Assembly: GCA_965216325.1 (NCBI GenBank)
Contig: OZ244160.1
Coordinates: 224,001 to 288,000 of the forward strand
Source of the DNA: Coraliomargarita sp.
GTDB lineage: Bacteria > Verrucomicrobiota > Verrucomicrobiia > Opitutales > Coraliomargaritaceae
Reading direction: 5' to 3'
Length of the DNA stretch: 64,000 nucleotides
The position numbers and the translations under genes are program-made. Below are positions 40,695-48,781 of the stretch, in pieces (position 1 is the stretch's first letter; every line of letters begins with the position of its first letter). The notes beneath the pieces are model-generated. The model was not told the DNA's origin. It saw only the letters and a program-made list of their open reading frames with translations, and did no database searches.

Positions 40695-40780
40695 GCCCAG
40701 GTGGTGGAATGGTAGACACTGGGGACTTAAAATCCCTTGCCAGCAATGGCGTGCGGGTTCAAGTCCCGCCCTGGGCACCA
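40695..40780 (+). tRNA. tRNA-Leu(TAA), integration site
   Basis: GCCCAGG...GGGGACTTAAAATCCCT...GGTTCAAGTCC..CCTGGGCACCA; 86 nt with long variable arm. Confidence 0.96.
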
Positions 40781-40865
40781 GTTGATTATCAGTGGTTTAT
40801 GGTTTCCGTTGGGCGTTTTTTTAATTGTTCTGGTTTTTGATGTGACCAGAAAGTGCCGAATCCTG

Positions 40866-41519
40866 TCAGTGCGTTTTGTATAAAACAACGCCTTGAGGTG
40901 GCGGTGCGATTTTCGGGATGCTATTCTCTACTGCCTGCGTGATGGTGTCGAAGATCCTTTTTGCACTTTCGACCTCTTCGGGGTCCGCCTTTGAGTTGTC
41001 GAGAATTAGGAAATCAGCTTCGAGTCGCATAAGGAACTCGGTTCTCTCTTTTCTGTTATCAACAAAGTGCGAGTCGTTAAGCCCCATATTAACTATATGG
41101 TAGAACCCTGCGGTGCTGGTAGCCACAAGATAGCCAGTTTCTGGGTCCTCAAAAATGTGGTTTCCGTAGTCGATCTCCTCGCATGGGTTTAGGTAGCGCA
41201 TCCCTAAGTCGGACTCTGCTTTATTTGGCCAAGTGTCCGACTTCTTCATATTGCATGAACCTGCGCTCGGAAATAGATTTTTGTATGCGTGTCGCCGCCT
41301 GCCAGTGAGGTGTGGGTCGAAATGGTCGATGTGTATGCCACTCGCTCCGCCAGCCTTAGACTCATGAAGCATGGAGAAGGCACATCGCTTCTTGAAGTCT
41401 CTCTCGATCTCTTTGCGAGAATGCTTGCGGTAGGTGTTATCCGTCAGGATTCGCAACTTACCATCGCTCTTTTTGGGCGCTGGGCCTCTCTTAATACGCG
41501 ACTTTTTCCGCGGAGACAT
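40866..41519 (-). CDS. HNH endonuclease-like protein
   Basis: RCAFS..HIDHFDP..YKNLF...CNMKK, LNPCE. Confidence 0.8.
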   Translation of the reverse strand: MSPRKKSRIKRGPAPKKSDGKLRILTDNTYRKHSRKEIERDFKKRCAFSMLHESKAGGASGIHIDHFDPHLTGRRRHAYKNLFPSAGSCNMKKSDTWPNKAESDLGMRYLNPCEEIDYGNHIFEDPETGYLVATSTAGFYHIVNMGLNDSHFVDNRKERTEFLMRLEADFLILDNSKADPEEVESAKRIFDTITQAVENSIPKIAPPPQGVVLYKTH

Positions 41520-41916
41520 AGTGGTCAAACGCGTTTAGGAGATTTCGAAACGCTTGCTTACGCTCATATTCTTTAATGCGCTCCTCTGTTGTGCATTGAT
41601 CTAGCGCATCTTCTCGAGCATCGTAGAGCTCCTGAAATTCACGATCTTCAGCTTCACTTGTCTTTTGCTGCGCTTTTAGGAGCATGAGTTCGCTAAAACG
41701 CCCCTTTGCCTGCTCATTCCACTCTACGGGAACCCGAACCCTTGCAGTGGCTGTCGGAGTGGATTCTTTACCAACTGATACTGGCCGCGGCCTTTCAATT
41801 GTTGCGGTGCACTCTAATTCAGTTGCTGATGATGCACTAGCAATAGTTCCTGCCATGCCTACCCCAAGGGCGACAGCAACGGTAGCTGGCTTTGTGTATT
41901 GAATCTTAGACTTCAT
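41491..41916 (-). CDS. Hypothetical protein with helical C-terminus, possible antitoxin-like partner of the HNH
   Basis: Overlaps the HNH start; RFSELMLLK..SEAEDREFQEL. Confidence 0.6.
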   Translation of the reverse strand: MKSKIQYTKPATVAVALGVGMAGTIASASSATELECTATIERPRPVSVGKESTPTATARVRVPVEWNEQAKGRFSELMLLKAQQKTSEAEDREFQELYDAREDALDQCTTEERIKEYERKQAFRNLLNAFDHYVSAEKVAY

Positions 41917-41941
41917 TAGATCAGGAACTTCAATGCTTACA

Positions 41942-42439
41942 TTAACCCTTCATGTAGATATCTGCAAGTAGGTTGAAGTGACATTCAAAAGACGATCGAA
42001 GTAGTGCAACTCCTTCGCATTTAACTTTTTGCGCGTTAGGTTCACCGTCTGCGGTGGGGTAGAATCTTAGGGCAGACGGAGCGTAATTCTCCAAGCGTAT
42101 TTCGGCGAAGTTATCATTTCGTCCAGCATTAACAAGCGCTGCGTGCGCGATTGTTACGCCGCCTTGTGGCATGCGGATTCCACGGTGTATATAGTCAGGT
42201 TTCGCGGGATAGGGCTTTGAGCGCGATAGATACTTTACGATAGATCCAGTATTCTCAGGGTCCATTTCCTTATTTATCGAAAAAGAGAAGCTAGATAGAA
42301 GTTCTCCATCATCGCTGACTAGGCCACATGTAGCAACAATGTAAGGTTTTGCATGCGTAACCACATAACGGTTGAAGGCCATTACGATAGGAAAGCCACT
42401 AAGTGCAGGCATTAAATCTATCTTAATCTCTTTGGACAT
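41942..42439 (-). CDS. Hypothetical cargo protein
   Basis: 165-aa ORF, first gene of the three-gene cassette. Confidence 0.65.
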   Translation of the reverse strand: MSKEIKIDLMPALSGFPIVMAFNRYVVTHAKPYIVATCGLVSDDGELLSSFSFSINKEMDPENTGSIVKYLSRSKPYPAKPDYIHRGIRMPQGGVTIAHAALVNAGRNDNFAEIRLENYAPSALRFYPTADGEPNAQKVKCEGVALLRSSFECHFNLLADIYMKG

Positions 42440-42538
42440 GAGCGCTCTACGTGCAAAAAGTTCGTTAGATAGTCACACTGCTTGACGGCCAGCAAGCATA
42501 AATTACTGCGCTCGATATTGCCAAACCTTGAAGATATA

Positions 42539-46440: not shown

Positions 46441-46531
46441 GTTTTTACTGATACATTGAACCGCGTCATCGATTAGGCCCGAGGCGCGGTTTATTTATGT
46501 TCGCAGCCAACACCATGAAGGCCGCCAAAGT

Positions 46532-46723
46532 TTACCGAGTCTCCATTCCTCGAAGTGCCTCGAGTGCCCTATCAATAGGGATTAAAATCAGACGTGGAGT
46601 AGGGCGGCAGTGCGGAACAATGCCCTGCGAAACCAGGTTGTTTACATGGCGACGACTGCAACCGATACGCTTTGCAAACTGAATCGGTTTTTCATATTCG
46701 GCTGTTGGGCTTTCTTGCTTCAT
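46532..46723 (-). CDS. Excisionase/AlpA-like HTH protein
   Basis: 63 aa; QFAKRIGCSRRHV..L...G.VP...PRLILI. Confidence 0.72.
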   Translation of the reverse strand: MKQESPTAEYEKPIQFAKRIGCSRRHVNNLVSQGIVPHCRPTPRLILIPIDRALEALRGMETR

Positions 46724-46783
46724 GCAACCCATAATGCCGAAAATGCCTCAGTAAAAAAACGAGAGTCGAAAAGTAGAACTTTC

Positions 46784-47440
46784 CTATTTATTCTTCGGGC
46801 GACCCCGAGGCATCTTTAGTAAATTCCAGCCCATTGCCTTAGCTGCGCTCTCGATCGTTTTCTTGTCAGCGGTGCAGTGACTAAGTTCATCAGAAACTTG
46901 CTGCCAGGTGAGCTCCTCCCCATCTCGCTCCGCACGCTGTTTTATTATGACCATTTCTAACCGGACCGGATCAAGCGGGCCTGTTGATTCCTTTTTGCGG
47001 CGCAAACTACGGGAAAGAGCCTCAAAGAATTCAAAATTAAGCTCCTCTATTTTTCCACGAAGAAGCTTTCCCAGGTATTCATCCTCAAATCCTTCTTGCC
47101 CTGTTTGATGGTCGAGAACCACTTGATCGCAGACACCCAAATCCGGATGATTTATTACATCCTCGCCATCGGAAAAGAAACAGATGCGCTCATTGAACCC
47201 CCCTGGCATATCAGGCAGATACATATTAGGCTTCCTTCCAGTCTTCACTGGGTTGCTCTTCTTTTTGTTATACGCTGTTGAGGAAAATTTTGGATTCGCG
47301 GCAAGCCACGCCCGAGCCTCACTTAAAGTCGCCCTGGATCCAGGCATAACAAACCCCGCTTCCTTCATCGCAAATATGTATCCACGGTTGCGACCAAGTT
47401 CAGCCGCCAACTCTTTCACAGATAGTAACTTTTCAGTCAT
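46784..47440 (-). CDS. Hypothetical regulator with N-terminal HTH-like domain
   Basis: LLSVKELAAELGRNRGYIFAM; ATGA overlap with integrase stop; C-terminal PRGRPK. Confidence 0.72.
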   Translation of the reverse strand: MTEKLLSVKELAAELGRNRGYIFAMKEAGFVMPGSRATLSEARAWLAANPKFSSTAYNKKKSNPVKTGRKPNMYLPDMPGGFNERICFFSDGEDVINHPDLGVCDQVVLDHQTGQEGFEDEYLGKLLRGKIEELNFEFFEALSRSLRRKKESTGPLDPVRLEMVIIKQRAERDGEELTWQQVSDELSHCTADKKTIESAAKAMGWNLLKMPRGRPKNK

Positions 47441-48618
47441 GCAACATCCTCCACTAATTGAGCGCCCTTCGGCGCTATTCTCCAAAACTTCACGCCGTCG
47501 GCCTTTTTTACCAGGGCCCTATAGTGCTGCAAAACCATTTCAGGCGTGCCGTGCCCCATGGCCTCCTGCAGCTTCTTGATATCGCCATAAGCGGCTAGGT
47601 GATAGCTCGCGAAGGAGTGCCGCAGAACATCCTGCTTTTTCGCTATTCCGACAACGTGGCGAATCGCTTTAATCTTATCCCCCCATACGGATGGAATGAT
47701 TCTCCCCGTTCGTTCCCCTTCGGGCGTCAACTCCAGCCAGGCGCGGAGATTTGTGGCCATTTCAATATTCCGGACGGACCGCGTTTTCGCTACATCGAGA
47801 CCGACCTTAATAAACTCATGGTCAAAGTCTACGTGCTCCCAATGTAGCCGAGTAATTTCTTTCGGACGGATTCCCGCGAAAAGTTGCAAAGCAACAGCCG
47901 GAATACAGTCGGAGCAATCTAGGCGGTAACTCATCGGGATGTTCTTTTCCTTCCGGTGGTCGCGACAAGCCTCGAGAACCGCCTCACACTCCTCGAGTGT
48001 TGCAATCTCAGTCGGTGACTTCTTCGGCTTCCGTGATTCGATCCGAGTAAATGGGTTTTCGTCTAGATAACCCCGCTTTATGGCGAAACTGAAAGCAGGA
48101 CGAATCGTCCTTGAAGCATTGTCGAATTGTCGGTCCGTATGGAAAGATCCTTCGATAGCCTTCTCTATCTCGATTGGCTCAATCTCCGAAACTGTCCTTT
48201 GTCCCAATGCAGCAATAAGAGGGACCGAATACCGAGACATGTCCTTTAAATATGAATCCGAAACGCTAGTCTCCTTGCGCTCTTGGTATTCGTTCCAGAG
48301 AGCTTCTAGGGTGACAGAGCGATCTGTCCTTTCTTTCCAGTCGCTCCAATGTTGAGCGGCCTCCGAGAGCGTGCAGCGACCGTTTAGAATATCGTAGGCT
48401 TTCGCCGCGTCCTCGGCTTCTCCAGCGGTTAGCCGGCGAGAAGTCTCGCCCCATTTTCGGAGCTCGCCCTTTATCCTGGATGCTTCGGTCTTTGCCTTGC
48501 TTTCGTTTGAGAAAAACAGGCGCTGTCTCTTTCCAGTCGGGGAGGCTTTTGCGCTGACATCAAGTAGCCAGCGGCCATCAGGCAAGGATTTCGGCTCAAG
48601 TGCAGGTGATTTCGGCAT
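47437..48618 (-). CDS. Tyrosine recombinase/integrase
   Basis: AGIRPKEI (R), AKT (K), DVLRHSFASY, MGHG, HY; adjacent to att. Confidence 0.95.
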   Translation of the reverse strand: MPKSPALEPKSLPDGRWLLDVSAKASPTGKRQRLFFSNESKAKTEASRIKGELRKWGETSRRLTAGEAEDAAKAYDILNGRCTLSEAAQHWSDWKERTDRSVTLEALWNEYQERKETSVSDSYLKDMSRYSVPLIAALGQRTVSEIEPIEIEKAIEGSFHTDRQFDNASRTIRPAFSFAIKRGYLDENPFTRIESRKPKKSPTEIATLEECEAVLEACRDHRKEKNIPMSYRLDCSDCIPAVALQLFAGIRPKEITRLHWEHVDFDHEFIKVGLDVAKTRSVRNIEMATNLRAWLELTPEGERTGRIIPSVWGDKIKAIRHVVGIAKKQDVLRHSFASYHLAAYGDIKKLQEAMGHGTPEMVLQHYRALVKKADGVKFWRIAPKGAQLVEDVA

Positions 48619-48781
48619 GACTCCAGACTGCCCAATGATGCCCAAACAACAAGCCTTTAATGCCTTAAATGCCTAAATAGTGCCTAAATTACATGTTGAT
48701 AAGCAATGGCTTAGGTAATTGCGGCAAACTTAAAATCCCTTGCCAGCAATGGCGTGCGGGTTCAAGTCCCGCCCTGGGCAC

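What the first reader, a model, noticed from the sequence alone, without database searches (positions are those of the whole stretch)
40725..48781. 8-kb tRNA-Leu satellite encoding its own HK97 capsid and protease but no portal, terminase, tail or full replicase
Seen: exact 54-bp att repeats 8003 bp apart. All genes run one way: int, HTH, xis-like, HTH, primase-CTD-like, non-coding gap, HTH, capsid, protease, terminator, three cargo genes. The ORFs are intact, several with coupled stop/start overlaps. Known: HK97 phages order portal-protease-capsid; capsid-forming PICIs put capsid before protease but also carry portal and terminases; other PICIs encode size-redirecting proteins. Inference: an intermediate satellite class that supplies shell and maturation protease and borrows portal, terminase and tail from a helper, in a poorly studied host lineage.
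Basis: partly seen in the sequence, partly recalled or inferred. Interest (0 to 1): 0.85.

Follow-up and report, generated by a model that had tools for sequence, protein, structure and literature searches.

The report
Small capsid-carrying phage satellite island
An intact 8-kb mobile island in a tRNA-Leu gene carries its own phage head-shell and head-protease genes but no DNA-packaging or tail genes, so it is most likely a parasite of a helper phage, a new variant of a kind already described in other bacteria.

Summary
Exact 54-bp repeats 8003 bp apart bracket 11 minus-strand ORFs next to tRNA-Leu(taa). These include an integrase, an HK97-family capsid gene and an S78 prohead protease. None of the 11 matches a portal, large terminase or tail family.

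It is not a deletion remnant. A second member lies on a metagenome contig (L097; capsid 77% identical). It has 50-bp repeats 8766 bp apart in tRNA-Arg, the same gene order, and no portal or terminase. A same-genus genome and a contig from an unrelated aquatic metagenome both show the empty site, the latter missing exactly 8003 bp. The capsid is conserved at 78% amino-acid identity while synonymous sites are saturated.

The family has three hallmarks:
- the capsid gene lies before the protease;
- the protease lacks the usual C-terminal tail;
- relatives carry a tape-measure gene next, 55% identical to that of one 33-kb phage contig, a candidate helper lineage.

The most likely reading is a PICI-like, helper-dependent satellite. 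The claim of a new "intermediate class" is overstated. Portal-less satellites with capsid genes are already in print: Gram-negative PICIs, phiRv1/2, E. coli capsid-plus-tape-measure islands, EPIPs and 8.75-kb "mini" HK97 genomes. I rate it a new variant of a known kind. No experiment exists.

The parts
40695..40780 (+). tRNA-Leu(taa), the integration target; its 3' part is now supplied by the attL copy
   Evidence: ARAGORN; Rfam RF00005, 59.3 bits
40725..40778 (.). attL: left copy of the exact 54-bp direct repeat
   Evidence: family D1, 100% identical, spacing 8003
40866..41528 (-). 220-aa HNH nuclease, PtuB-like. Either accessory cargo or a packaging accessory; no PtuA partner.
   Evidence: PADLOC PDLC00337 2.8e-11; phrog_2118 1.2e-5; TIGR02646 0.0079
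41491..41916 (-). 141-aa ORF of unknown function, with a hydrophobic N-terminus; variable cargo
   Evidence: No hit in Pfam, PHROGs, NCBIfam or PADLOC; no homologue in any fetched locus
41942..42439 (-). 165-aa ORF of unknown function; variable cargo
   Evidence: No family hit; the ESM Atlas gave no usable hit
42540..42581 (-). Terminator-like hairpin (11-bp G+C stem, then U-run) that closes the capsid operon
   Evidence: strand folding; missed by the pattern scan because the loop is longer than 8 nt
42606..43142 (-). S78 (HK97-type) prohead serine protease. The likely start is at 43088 (160 aa). It lacks the C-terminal tail found in phage homologues.
   Evidence: PF04586 4.7e-47; TIGR01543 1.7e-36; H82, S133 and D75 invariant in 7 of 7 aligned sequences; tail absent
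43165..44652 (-). HK97-fold major capsid protein, 495 aa by the longest ORF (likely start at 44634). The first ~135 residues form an N-terminal region specific to this family.
   Evidence: PF05065 1.4e-36; TIGR01554; AF2 model mean pLDDT 71; Foldseek RcGTA 6tb9 3.9e-17, cf-PICI EcCI2 9gyi 4.5e-14, HK97
44649..45158 (-). 169-aa family-specific protein (likely start at 45140) with a C-terminal HTH, tightly linked to the capsid gene. Candidate late regulator or packaging-specificity factor.
   Evidence: Only 4 proteins found, the query itself included; 59% identical in L097; the L097 homologue has weak HTH_23/Sigma70_r4_2 hits; AF2 model pLDDT 58, best in helices 115-160
45235..45345 (-). Conserved non-coding block upstream of the capsid operon, with a core about 91% identical to L097. 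Candidate late promoter/operator or packaging site.
   Evidence: Alignment; nucleotide homology with L097 starts at 45341. The pattern matched none of the 400 other sampled genomes of the phylum nor viral contigs.
45430..45530 (.). AT-rich stretch (GC 0.22) with flanking inverted repeats, downstream of the primase-like gene. Candidate origin of replication.
   Evidence: the L097 gap holds repeated TTGTATC-type motifs
45591..46040 (-). 149-aa stand-alone Pox_D5-like (primase C-terminal) domain protein. Candidate origin-binding protein.
   Evidence: ESM Atlas 0.94 with 175 shared features to PF03288 clusters; 51% identical in L097; no Pfam hit
46027..46440 (-). 137-aa protein whose C-terminal HTH motif is shared with the 233-aa ORF and with a 74-aa ORF of phage contig L027
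   Evidence: tblastn, 58% identity over 48 aa to L027 4078-4221
46532..46732 (-). 66-aa excisionase/AlpA-like HTH protein
   Evidence: PF12728 HTH_17 E 0.006, below the cut-off. The 75-aa ORF at the same position in L097 hits HTH_17 at 2e-7 and phrog_575 Cox-like excisionase.
46784..47485 (-). 233-aa protein (likely start at 47440; 218 aa) with an N-terminal HTH and a C-terminal domain of unknown function
   Evidence: 37% identical to the 225-aa ORF of L097 at the same position; no family hit
47437..48645 (-). Tyrosine integrase
   Evidence: PF00589 1.4e-12; phrog_1 4.3e-36
48728..48781 (.). attR: right copy of the 54-bp repeat (the displaced tRNA 3' part, followed by TT instead of CA)
   Evidence: Rfam tRNA fragment at 23.9 bits

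Best explanation
This is an intact, site-specifically integrating phage satellite with a PICI-like layout: int, small HTH regulators, a minimal replication module with an origin, then late genes. It is 8,003 bp long and sits in tRNA-Leu(taa) of a bacterium of the Verrucomicrobiota class Opitutia. The taxon is an inference from a labelled relative.

Shown:
- It is a discrete insertion bounded by a 54-bp att duplication.
- The site is empty in a congener and in near-identical environmental DNA.
- It belongs to a small conserved family whose late module runs: conserved non-coding block, 169-aa HTH protein, HK97 capsid, tail-less S78 protease, terminator.
- No member seen encodes a portal, a large terminase or a full tail.
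- The capsid and protease are under purifying selection and keep the invariant His and Ser.

Inferred:
- On infection by a helper siphophage of the lineage seen in contig L027/L098, the element excises, using Int and the small HTH proteins.
- It replicates from the AT-rich, repeat-bearing gap beside the Pox_D5-like protein, using host or helper enzymes.
- It expresses the late operon, whose capsid protein assembles on the helper's portal into a shell matured by the satellite protease.
- The helper's terminase, connectors and tail do the rest.

Relatives add their own tape measure. This copy instead carries an HNH nuclease and two unknown genes.

Two questions stay open: whether the shell is small and holds one 8-kb genome, and whether the capsid gene mainly interferes with the helper.
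For: Discrete mobile insertion.
- Exact 54-bp repeats, spacing 8003.
- Same-genus genome G398 has hemN and tRNA-Leu followed directly by the sequence that follows attR in the window.
- In run X5, an aquatic metagenome from a different study than the source runs, one contig joins 40724 to 48728. It skips exactly 8003 nt, with 54 nt fitting either side.

Conserved family rather than a remnant.
- L097 has 50-bp exact repeats 8766 bp apart at tRNA-Arg(acg).
- L097 has the same gene order. Identities to the window: int 36%, 225-aa 36%, 154-aa 51%, 203-aa 59%, capsid 77%, protease 68%. Pfam and PHROGs find no portal or terminase in its 10 ORFs.
- Nucleotide homology between the two elements is confined to 45341-42621, the late module.
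- The capsids of the window, L097 and three others form a clade with SH-aLRT 99. The phage capsids from L027, L028, L100, L030 and L026 lie outside it.

Selection.
- Capsid: dN 0.18, third-position identity 0.41, dS not computable because saturated.
- 169-aa gene: dN/dS 0.21.
- Protease H82 and S133 are invariant in 7 of 7 sequences.

Gene order. Of 61 fetched loci with both genes (not de-duplicated), 58 have the protease upstream of the capsid. The 3 with it downstream are 2 places, L097 and G230 (L018 = L142), and both are integrase-bearing islands.

Link to a helper lineage.
- The L097 tape measure is 54.6% identical over 586 aa to phage contig L027/L098.
- That contig has TerL, portal, protease, capsid (48% identical) and a head-tail adaptor.
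- It also has a 74-aa HTH ORF 49-58% identical to the HTH motif of the window's 233- and 137-aa proteins.

No resident helper found. The 3.06-Mb single-contig genome has 0 hits to PF04860, PF05133, PF03354, PF03237, PF04466 and PF10145, and 1 hit (this gene) to PF05065.

Capsid fold. AF2 model mean pLDDT 71; Foldseek matches RcGTA, phage R4C, cf-PICI EcCI2 and HK97 capsids at E 4e-17 to 4e-12.

Protease-capsid contact. The complex prediction of capsid residues 1-200 with the protease gave weak support only: score 0.58, best of 3 controls 0.38. The mark was reached by 116 of 157 solved complexes and 2 of 215 mismatches. At 0.60 or under it was reached by only 18 of the 157 and by both passing mismatches. 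The three runs agree in at least 80% of contacts, and the partner's pLDDT is at least 76.
Against: - No particle, transfer, induction or circular form has been observed.
- In the source run the element's contig depth (406.6) equals that of the flanks (401 and 392). There is therefore no sign of excision or replication in that culture.
- No helper is known. 24 kb of the genome is withheld, so a resident prophage cannot be fully excluded.
- No small terminase or cos/pac site was identified. How helper terminase would be directed to the element is therefore unexplained.
- The window copy lacks the tape measure that 2 of the 3 islands with visible downstream sequence carry, so it could be a derived or partly disabled variant.
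- In Gram-negative PICIs the capsid gene is reported as not required for transfer (PMC10111431, passage read). A capsid gene alone does not show that the satellite builds its own shell.
- The protease lacks the C-terminal tail. From recall, that tail targets the HK97 protease into proheads.
- Only two complete family members were seen. The family is rare: the 169-aa protein has 3 relatives in 5.8 billion clusters.
Confidence: 0.65

Rival explanations
1. It is a satellite, but the capsid-protease module is an interference weapon rather than a shell for the satellite's own DNA. The capsid protein co-assembles with, or competes with, helper capsid protein. The untargeted, tail-less protease acts on helper assembly. 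The satellite DNA travels as concatemers in helper-sized heads.
For: - Gram-negative PICI capsid genes are reported as not required for transfer, and a model PICI is packaged as ~45-kb concatemers (PMC10111431, passage read).
- VEIMEs are packaged as concatemers (PMC9618062, passages read).
- The protease lacks the C-terminal tail in 5 of 5 island copies seen, while 4 of the 4 nearest other homologues have it.
- Four copies of 8.0-8.8 kb come to 32-35 kb, about the 33-kb length of the candidate helper contig. This is arithmetic only.
Against: - The capsid keeps a full-length, family-specific N-terminal region and is strongly conserved.
- The complex prediction gives weak support for a protease-capsid N-terminus contact: 0.58 against a best control of 0.38.
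- Element sizes cluster tightly (8.0 and 8.77 kb), which would matter little for concatemer packaging.
Confidence: 0.17
2. It is a cryptic integrative element: a decayed prophage or former satellite. Its integrase still works, but its structural genes no longer serve particle formation.
For: - No portal, terminase, small terminase or tail gene.
- No tape measure, unlike relatives.
- No helper-type genes in the genome.
- No copy-number excess in the source run.
Against: - Two complete members at different tRNAs have the same order and near-equal size.
- All ORFs are intact.
- Synonymous sites are saturated while the capsid stays 78% identical.
- A non-coding block is conserved.
- The protease's invariant residues are retained.
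- Independent decay would not give this shared gene set twice.
Confidence: 0.1
3. It is an autonomous portal-less, tail-less HK97-fold 'twilight-zone' virus, or an encapsulin-like protein compartment carried by a mobile element.
For: [quoted passage not shown]
Against: - The capsid matches only the phage family PF05065, not an encapsulin family.
- A prohead protease is present.
- Relatives carry tape-measure genes that make sense only with a tail.
- The structural genes are homologous to those of one tailed-phage contig.
- No Rep/HUH gene and no lysis gene was found.
Confidence: 0.04

Closest known systems
Gram-negative PICIs (model EcCICFT073), as summarised in PMC10111431 and PMC10085698 (passages read)
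   Same: Unidirectional layout of int, a small AlpA-type regulator, a primase-type gene, an origin downstream of it, then phage late genes. The late genes often include a major capsid gene. There is no portal, large terminase or tail. Integration is chromosomal.
   Different: - Here only a 149-aa Pox_D5-like fragment stands in for Pri-Rep.
- No terS or rpp-type gene was found.
- The capsid is HK97/PF05065 type with its own S78 protease.
- The size is 8.0 kb, against 10-20 kb.
- The host is in Verrucomicrobiota.
- There is no sequence similarity beyond family level.
Capsid-forming PICIs (cf-PICIs; PMC10085698 passages read; 10.1101/2022.09.08.507074 seen in a search listing with abstract only)
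   Same: A satellite-encoded HK97-fold capsid, a prohead protease and an HNH. The capsid model matches the solved cf-PICI EcCI2 capsid 9gyi at E 4.5e-14.
   Different: cf-PICIs also encode portal, terL, terS, head-tail adaptor and connector: 11 core components, of which at least 9 are required. Five of these (portal, terL, terS, adaptor, connector) are absent here.
EPIPs of Mycolicibacterium aichiense (PMC12822802, preprint, passages read) and the putative E. coli capsid + decoration + tape-measure satellites (PMC10055350, passages read)
   Same: Small integrative elements that pair a capsid gene with a tape-measure gene and lack terminase large subunit, portal and most tail genes. The relatives L097 and G230 of this family have capsid, protease and tape measure in a row.
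   Different: - The window copy itself has no tape measure.
- EPIPs have a serine integrase, TerS, adaptor and stopper.
- The E. coli elements lack a prohead protease and alpA, and use RepA_N.
phiRv1/phiRv2-type candidate PICIs of mycobacteria (PMC10654092 and PMC10085698, passages read)
   Same: Small islands defined by an integrase plus a major capsid gene. Those with tyrosine integrases sit at tRNA genes. They are proposed to be helper-dependent but remain untested.
   Different: The phylum differs and the sequences are unrelated. From recall, the mycobacterial elements order protease before capsid and have a terminase-like gene; I did not test this.
'Mini' twilight-zone HK97 genomes (PMC13669383, Nat Commun, Oct 2026; Results part 1 and passages read)
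   Same: Genome of 5-11.6 kb (their dominant group is 8.75 kb) with an integrase, an excisionase, sigma-like or other regulators and an HK97-fold capsid protein. No portal, terminase or tail genes. The authors raise the satellite hypothesis.
   Different: - Their dominant group comes from human-gut samples, has capsid proteins with encapsulin Pfam domains, and has a scaffold protein.
- The word 'protease' does not occur in their main text.
- Here the capsid is a standard PF05065 protein with a protease.
- Here the element is seen integrated with defined att sites.

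Membership tests
HK97-family major capsid protein (PF05065 / TIGR01554) | Profile match above the curated cut-off, and an HK97 fold | tested here: met
   PF05065 126.8 bits (cut-off 24.2); TIGR01554 124 bits (cut-off 27.5); Foldseek HK97-fold capsids at E down to 3.9e-17
S78 prohead serine protease (PF04586 / TIGR01543) | Profile match above the cut-off, with the conserved His and Ser retained | tested here: met
   160.6 bits (cut-off 21); H82 and S133 invariant in 7 of 7 aligned sequences. 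That these two are the catalytic residues is recalled, not tested.
cf-PICI (SatelliteFinder model, PMC10085698) | At least 9 of 11 core components | tested here: not met
   Found: int, capsid, protease and HNH, plus a weak AlpA-like HTH and a Pox_D5-like lead. That is at most 6 of 11. SatelliteFinder itself was not run.
cf-PICI (SatelliteFinder model, PMC10085698) | [quoted passage not shown] | tested here: not met
   0 of 11 ORFs hit these families in Pfam, PHROGs or NCBIfam. No unassigned ORF exceeds 233 aa.
PICI (SatelliteFinder model: int, regulator, pri-rep, capsid morphogenesis, terS; at least 4 of 5) | Integrase and a capsid-type gene | tested here: met
PICI (SatelliteFinder model) | AlpA/MerR/Stl-type regulator and a primase-replicase | tested here: inconclusive
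   HTH_17 E 0.006, below the cut-off. The L097 counterpart scores 2e-7. For the primase there is only a Pox_D5-like Atlas lead for a 149-aa protein.
PICI (SatelliteFinder model) | Small terminase (terS) | tested here: not met
   The only hit is a generic HTH match of the 66-aa protein to phrog_57, E 0.0021, over 24 residues.
PICI / phage satellite in general | Helper-dependent induction, packaging and transfer | not testable with these tools
   Indirect evidence only: empty-site polymorphism and structural genes homologous to one phage lineage
EPIP satellites (PMC12822802) | Serine integrase, TerS, head-to-tail adaptor and stopper, capsid protein, tape measure | tested here: not met
   Tyrosine integrase; no TerS, adaptor, stopper or tape measure in the window copy. 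Relatives L097 and G230 have a tape measure.
'Mini' twilight-zone HK97 genomes (PMC13669383) | Under 11.6 kb, an HK97-fold capsid protein, no portal or tail genes | tested here: met
   8,003 bp
'Mini' twilight-zone HK97 genomes, dominant encapsulin-enriched group | Capsid protein carries encapsulin Pfam domains | tested here: not met
   Only PF05065 was reported at E up to 0.01
Septu defence system | PtuA ATPase together with the PtuB HNH nuclease | tested here: not met
   PtuB-like match at 2.8e-11 for the 220-aa ORF. No PADLOC hit for the two neighbouring ORFs, and no separate ATPase ORF.

The most novel reading that the evidence does not exclude
The family makes the smallest known self-encapsidating tailed-phage satellites. 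An 8-kb genome would be packed singly into a T=3/T=4-sized HK97 shell. That shell would be built from satellite capsid protein with a novel N-terminal domain, matured by a protease that has lost the canonical targeting tail, and nucleated on a stolen portal. Relatives would also dictate tail length with their own tape measure. This would put a packaged HK97 genome below the 11.6-kb floor of isolated tailed phages. It would also give the computationally found 'mini' HK97 genomes a concrete mechanism testable by culture.
Probability: 0.3. Interest if true: 0.72.

Novelty: new variant of a known kind. Interest (0 to 1): 0.5.

Why it matters
Satellites that carry a capsid gene but no portal or terminase are turning up in several phyla, and almost none has been tested. 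This one has several practical advantages:
- It sits in a complete single-contig genome.
- Its att sites are exact, and there is a natural empty-site allele.
- A sister element and a candidate helper lineage are in hand.
- Its late operon is very small: one DNA-binding protein, a capsid and a protease.

That makes it a compact system for asking three questions. What is the minimum a satellite must encode to redirect head assembly? How is a protease without its targeting tail incorporated? Can HK97 shells package genomes of about 8 kb?

It also extends candidate phage satellites to Verrucomicrobiota. My one literature search for that combination listed no paper combining 'phage satellite' with a Verrucomicrobiota term among the 12 shown.

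Tried and rejected
- **Small-terminase idea.** The HTH motif shared by the 233- and 137-aa proteins matches a 74-aa ORF in phage contig L027. That ORF lies just after TerL, not in the TerS position, and has no PHROG hit. I dropped the idea as unsupported.
- **Single-protein scan of genome contigs with the capsid.** 73 pattern matches, none confirmed.
- **Conserved non-coding motif.** It matched none of the 400 other sampled genomes of the phylum; the only hit was the window's own genome. There were 0 matches in viral contigs.
- **Rfam on the element.** Only the tRNA and its fragment.
- **Promoter/terminator pattern scan.** Counts equal chance: 9 against 8.3 and 7 against 8.9.
- **PDB sequence searches.**
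  - 169-aa protein: nothing below E 0.6.
  - 149-aa protein: a hit to the designed propeller Tako8 with 0 valid stretches, taken as spurious.
  - Protease: no hit.
- **AF2 model of the 169-aa protein.** Too poor (pLDDT 58) for a fold search.
- **ESM Atlas for the 165-aa ORF.** No usable hit.
- **RNA evidence.** No RNA holder was listed.
- **Metagenome run X5.** Contigs cover parts of 44.4-48.6 kb but not 40.8-44.4 kb at 88% likeness or more. Run X7, with the same species label, laid nothing. Missing cover is not interpreted.
- **dN/dS.** Could not be computed for 6 of 7 gene pairs because synonymous sites are saturated.
- **Charybdis elements** (10.1101/2025.08.03.668216). Checked and set aside; they have no HK97 capsid.
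- **VEIMEs.** They encode no major capsid genes.
- **Earlier findings of this scan.** Look-ups by place and by sequence returned nothing.
- **Contigs behind P0005 (8028 nt) and P0007 (8486 nt).** Their gene content is unknown.
- **Supplements.** I did not open the supplements of any paper. The SatelliteFinder component list and the gene tables of the 'mini' genomes may bear on the membership rows.

Full report
**1. The observation**

The window holds two exact 54-nt direct repeats, at 40725-40778 and 48728-48781, with a start-to-start spacing of 8003. The left copy is the 3' part of tRNA-Leu(taa), 40695-40780 (Rfam). Between the repeats every sizeable ORF lies on the minus strand.

Family scans (Pfam, PHROGs, NCBIfam, PADLOC) give:
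- a tyrosine integrase;
- an HK97-family major capsid protein (PF05065 1.4e-36);
- an S78 prohead protease (PF04586 4.7e-47);
- an HNH nuclease at the tRNA-proximal end. Its best match is PtuB of Septu (2.8e-11); it has no PtuA partner.

None of the 11 ORFs matches a portal, large terminase, head-tail connector or tail family. The largest unassigned ORF is 233 aa. I treat that as a lead.

The terminator after the protease is real. It has an 11-bp G+C stem and a U-run. The pattern scan missed it. G+C is about 0.47-0.52 inside the element and 0.55-0.57 in the flanks.

**2. A mobile insertion, not a scar**

- In the same-genus genome G398, hemN and tRNA-Leu are followed directly by the sequence that follows the right repeat in the window.
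- In run X5, an aquatic metagenome from a different study than the source runs, one contig joins 40724 to 48728. It skips exactly 8003 nt, and the 54 nt fit either side.
- In the source run the element's depth (406.6) equals that of its flanks (401 and 392). Nothing there suggests excision or replication in culture.

**3. A conserved family**

The capsid has 298 database relatives at E of 0.001 or less among the 8000 candidates scored. Only a few are close: 77, 68, 68 and 56% identical.

*The 77% relative.* It lies on metagenome contig L097. There, 50-bp exact repeats 8766 bp apart bracket an element at tRNA-Arg(acg). Its genes run in the same order:
- int (36% identical);
- 225-aa HTH protein (36%);
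- 75-aa excisionase-like HTH;
- a RadC/JAB protein, where the window has the 137-aa ORF;
- 154-aa protein (51%);
- a non-coding gap;
- 203-aa protein (59%);
- capsid (77%);
- protease (68%);
- a 615-aa tape-measure protein (phrog_991 4.6e-82; PF10145 2.8e-35).

So there are two elements of 8.0 and 8.8 kb, with different integrases and different tRNA targets. They share the same core and lack portal and terminase. That argues against independent decay.

*Other members, by contig-length coincidence only.* A 6112-nt contig appears to carry a homologue of the 169-aa protein, a 68% capsid and a 176-aa protease. An 8776-nt contig equals the L097 element as a repeat-bounded assembly unit (8766 - 50 + 60). 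This follows the window's own 8009-nt unit.

*Extent of homology.* Nucleotide-level homology between the two complete elements is confined to window 45341-42621. This is a non-coding block plus the 169-aa gene, capsid and protease. There is also one 36-nt intergenic patch.

*Selection.* The capsid has dN 0.18 with third-position identity 0.41, and dS is saturated. The 169-aa gene gives dN/dS 0.21.

**4. Family hallmarks**

(a) Gene order. Of 61 fetched loci in which both genes are detectable (not de-duplicated; the window's own loci excluded), 58 have the protease upstream of the capsid. Where I annotated the neighbours, those loci are ordinary phages with portal-protease-capsid; TerL directly precedes the portal in L100 and L028, lies upstream in L027, and is off the contig in L030. 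The three loci with the protease downstream are two places, L097 and G230 (L018 = L142). Both are integrase-bearing islands.

(b) The protease. Island proteases stop right after the S78 domain: the window, P0126, L097, P0135 and G230, 5 of 5. The four nearest other homologues I aligned carry a 45-50-aa basic C-terminal extension. The phage proteases of L100, L028 and L027 have one too. From recall, that tail targets the HK97 protease into proheads. His82 and Ser133 are invariant.

(c) The capsid N-terminus. The first ~135 residues are specific to the five closest sequences. AF2 models them as a small alpha/beta region, not a long coiled coil, at moderate confidence. A complex prediction of capsid 1-200 with the protease gave weak support only:
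- score 0.58, best of 3 controls 0.38;
- the mark was reached by 116 of 157 solved complexes and 2 of 215 mismatches;
- at 0.60 or under it was reached by only 18 of the 157 and by both passing mismatches;
- the runs agree in at least 80% of contacts, and the partner's pLDDT is at least 76.

(d) A tape measure next to the protease. The G230 island, from a genome of the same order, runs int, excisionase-like HTH, a 530-aa DUF5906 protein, capsid, tail-less protease, then a tape measure (phrog_9483 8.7e-91). The start of the tape-measure gene overlaps the protease stop. So 2 of the 3 islands with visible downstream sequence have capsid-protease-tape measure. The window copy has two unknown ORFs and the HNH instead.

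A fourth island (L003 = L010) has int, a DnaB/AAA_25-like 568-aa protein and a 46% capsid at the contig end. L003 is titled as a Puniceicoccaceae MAG, and L010 comes from a genome of the window's order. This places the host in Verrucomicrobiota, class Opitutia, by inference.

In a quick maximum-likelihood tree the five closest capsids form a clade (SH-aLRT 99). A wider nine-row set adds the L003 island and sequences from contigs of 8.5 kb or less (support 85, weak). The annotated phages lie outside.

**5. The non-coding gap**

The gap lies downstream of the Pox_D5-like gene. It contains an AT-rich core (GC 0.22 at 45430-45489) with inverted repeats. The L097 gap has four copies of a TTGTATC-type motif.

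In Gram-negative PICIs the origin lies downstream of pri (PMC10111431, passage read). An origin is therefore the most economical reading; this is inference.

Closer to the late operon is a block whose core is about 91% identical between the two elements. It could be a late promoter/operator or a packaging site. The pattern matched none of the 400 other sampled genomes of the phylum, nor the viral collection.

**6. The helper**

The complete 3.06-Mb genome has no hit to two portal families, three large-terminase families or the tape-measure family. It has only this one capsid gene. 24 kb of the genome is withheld.

A candidate helper lineage exists in contig L027/L098 (33 kb). It has TerL, portal, protease, a capsid 48% identical to the window's, and a head-tail adaptor. 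It also has:
- a tape measure 54.6% identical over 586 aa to that of L097;
- a 74-aa HTH ORF 49-58% identical to the HTH motif of two window proteins.

Structural genes drawn from one phage lineage are what a satellite that must fit that phage's portal and tail would show.

**7. Mechanism**

*Best reading (0.65).* This is a PICI-like helper-dependent satellite whose late operon supplies capsid protein and maturation protease. Portal, terminase, connectors and tail come from a superinfecting L027-type siphophage.

- Shown: the insertion/empty-site polymorphism, family conservation, the absence of packaging genes, purifying selection, and homology to one phage lineage.
- Inferred: induction, the origin, assembly on a helper portal, and packaging.
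- Unexplained: how helper terminase is directed to the element, since no TerS or cos/pac site was found, and how the tail-less protease enters the shell.

*Rivals.*
- The capsid module acts mainly as interference, with concatemer packaging: 0.17.
- A cryptic remnant: 0.10.
- An autonomous portal-less virus or a protein compartment: 0.04.

**8. Comparison with what is known**

The layout is that of Gram-negative PICIs. Those carry a capsid gene in 21 of 29 reference elements, and it is not required for transfer (PMC10111431).

It fails the cf-PICI definition: at most 6 of 11 components, with no terL, portal, adaptor or connector (PMC10085698).

It resembles several other described elements:
- phiRv1/2-type 'integrase plus capsid' candidate PICIs (PMC10654092);
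- through its relatives, the capsid-plus-tape-measure elements of E. coli (PMC10055350) and the EPIPs (PMC12822802);
- by size and content, the 'mini' HK97 genomes of PMC13669383. Unlike their dominant group, it has no encapsulin domain, and it does have a protease.

Earlier notes of this scan list similar capsid/tape-measure islands in other phyla. They are unchecked leads. One of them led me to PMC10055350.

**9. Verdict**

- The satellite interpretation is supported by comparative evidence but not by experiment.
- The claimed new class is better described as a new variant of capsid-bearing, portal-less satellites. What distinguishes it is the minimal 8-kb size, the capsid-then-tail-less-protease order, the optional tape measure, and the Verrucomicrobiota host.
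- Interest: 0.5.

Noticed in passing
window 48937-48957 (and 48782-48936): There is a third, 21-nt copy of the tRNA-Leu 3' end, including CCA, 156 nt beyond attR. The same-genus genome G398, whose site is empty, has the homologous fragment too. It is therefore an older integration scar at this tRNA hotspot and is not part of the present element.
   Followed up: partly
L142 (G230:C80) 2592-3524, minus strand: A KwaB-like (Kiwa defence) gene (PF16162, 8.4e-18) lies about 1 kb upstream of the integrase of the related capsid-protease-tape-measure island.
   Followed up: no
L097 8025-8558: The sister element carries a RadC/JAB-domain gene (PF04002, 4.4e-34) where the window element has the 137-aa HTH ORF. 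The early module is mosaic between family members.
   Followed up: no
window 46461-46496: A 36-nt intergenic patch between the 66-aa and 137-aa ORFs is 83% identical to the corresponding intergenic spot of L097 (7965-8000). It is the only nucleotide homology outside the late module and is possibly a shared operator or promoter.
   Followed up: no
window 45333-45341 / 45612-45620, and L097 8989-9009 / 9318-9330 / 9498-9515: Runs of C and complementary runs of G bracket the non-coding gap in both elements, as inverted repeats 270-490 nt apart. Their function is unknown.
   Followed up: no
G152:C1 4490814-4491860, 4526534-4527580, 4562254-4563300: A genome of the same order has three identical-scoring capsid matches (open frames of 631 aa) spaced exactly 35,720 bp apart. 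This suggests a tandem triplicated prophage or an assembly repeat.
   Followed up: no
window 44378-48628, in metagenome run X5: Run X5 holds near-identical pieces of the integrase-to-169-aa half of the element. Nothing was laid on the capsid-to-HNH half at 88% likeness or more. This may be low depth, or a variant with a different late module. I do not interpret it.
   Followed up: no
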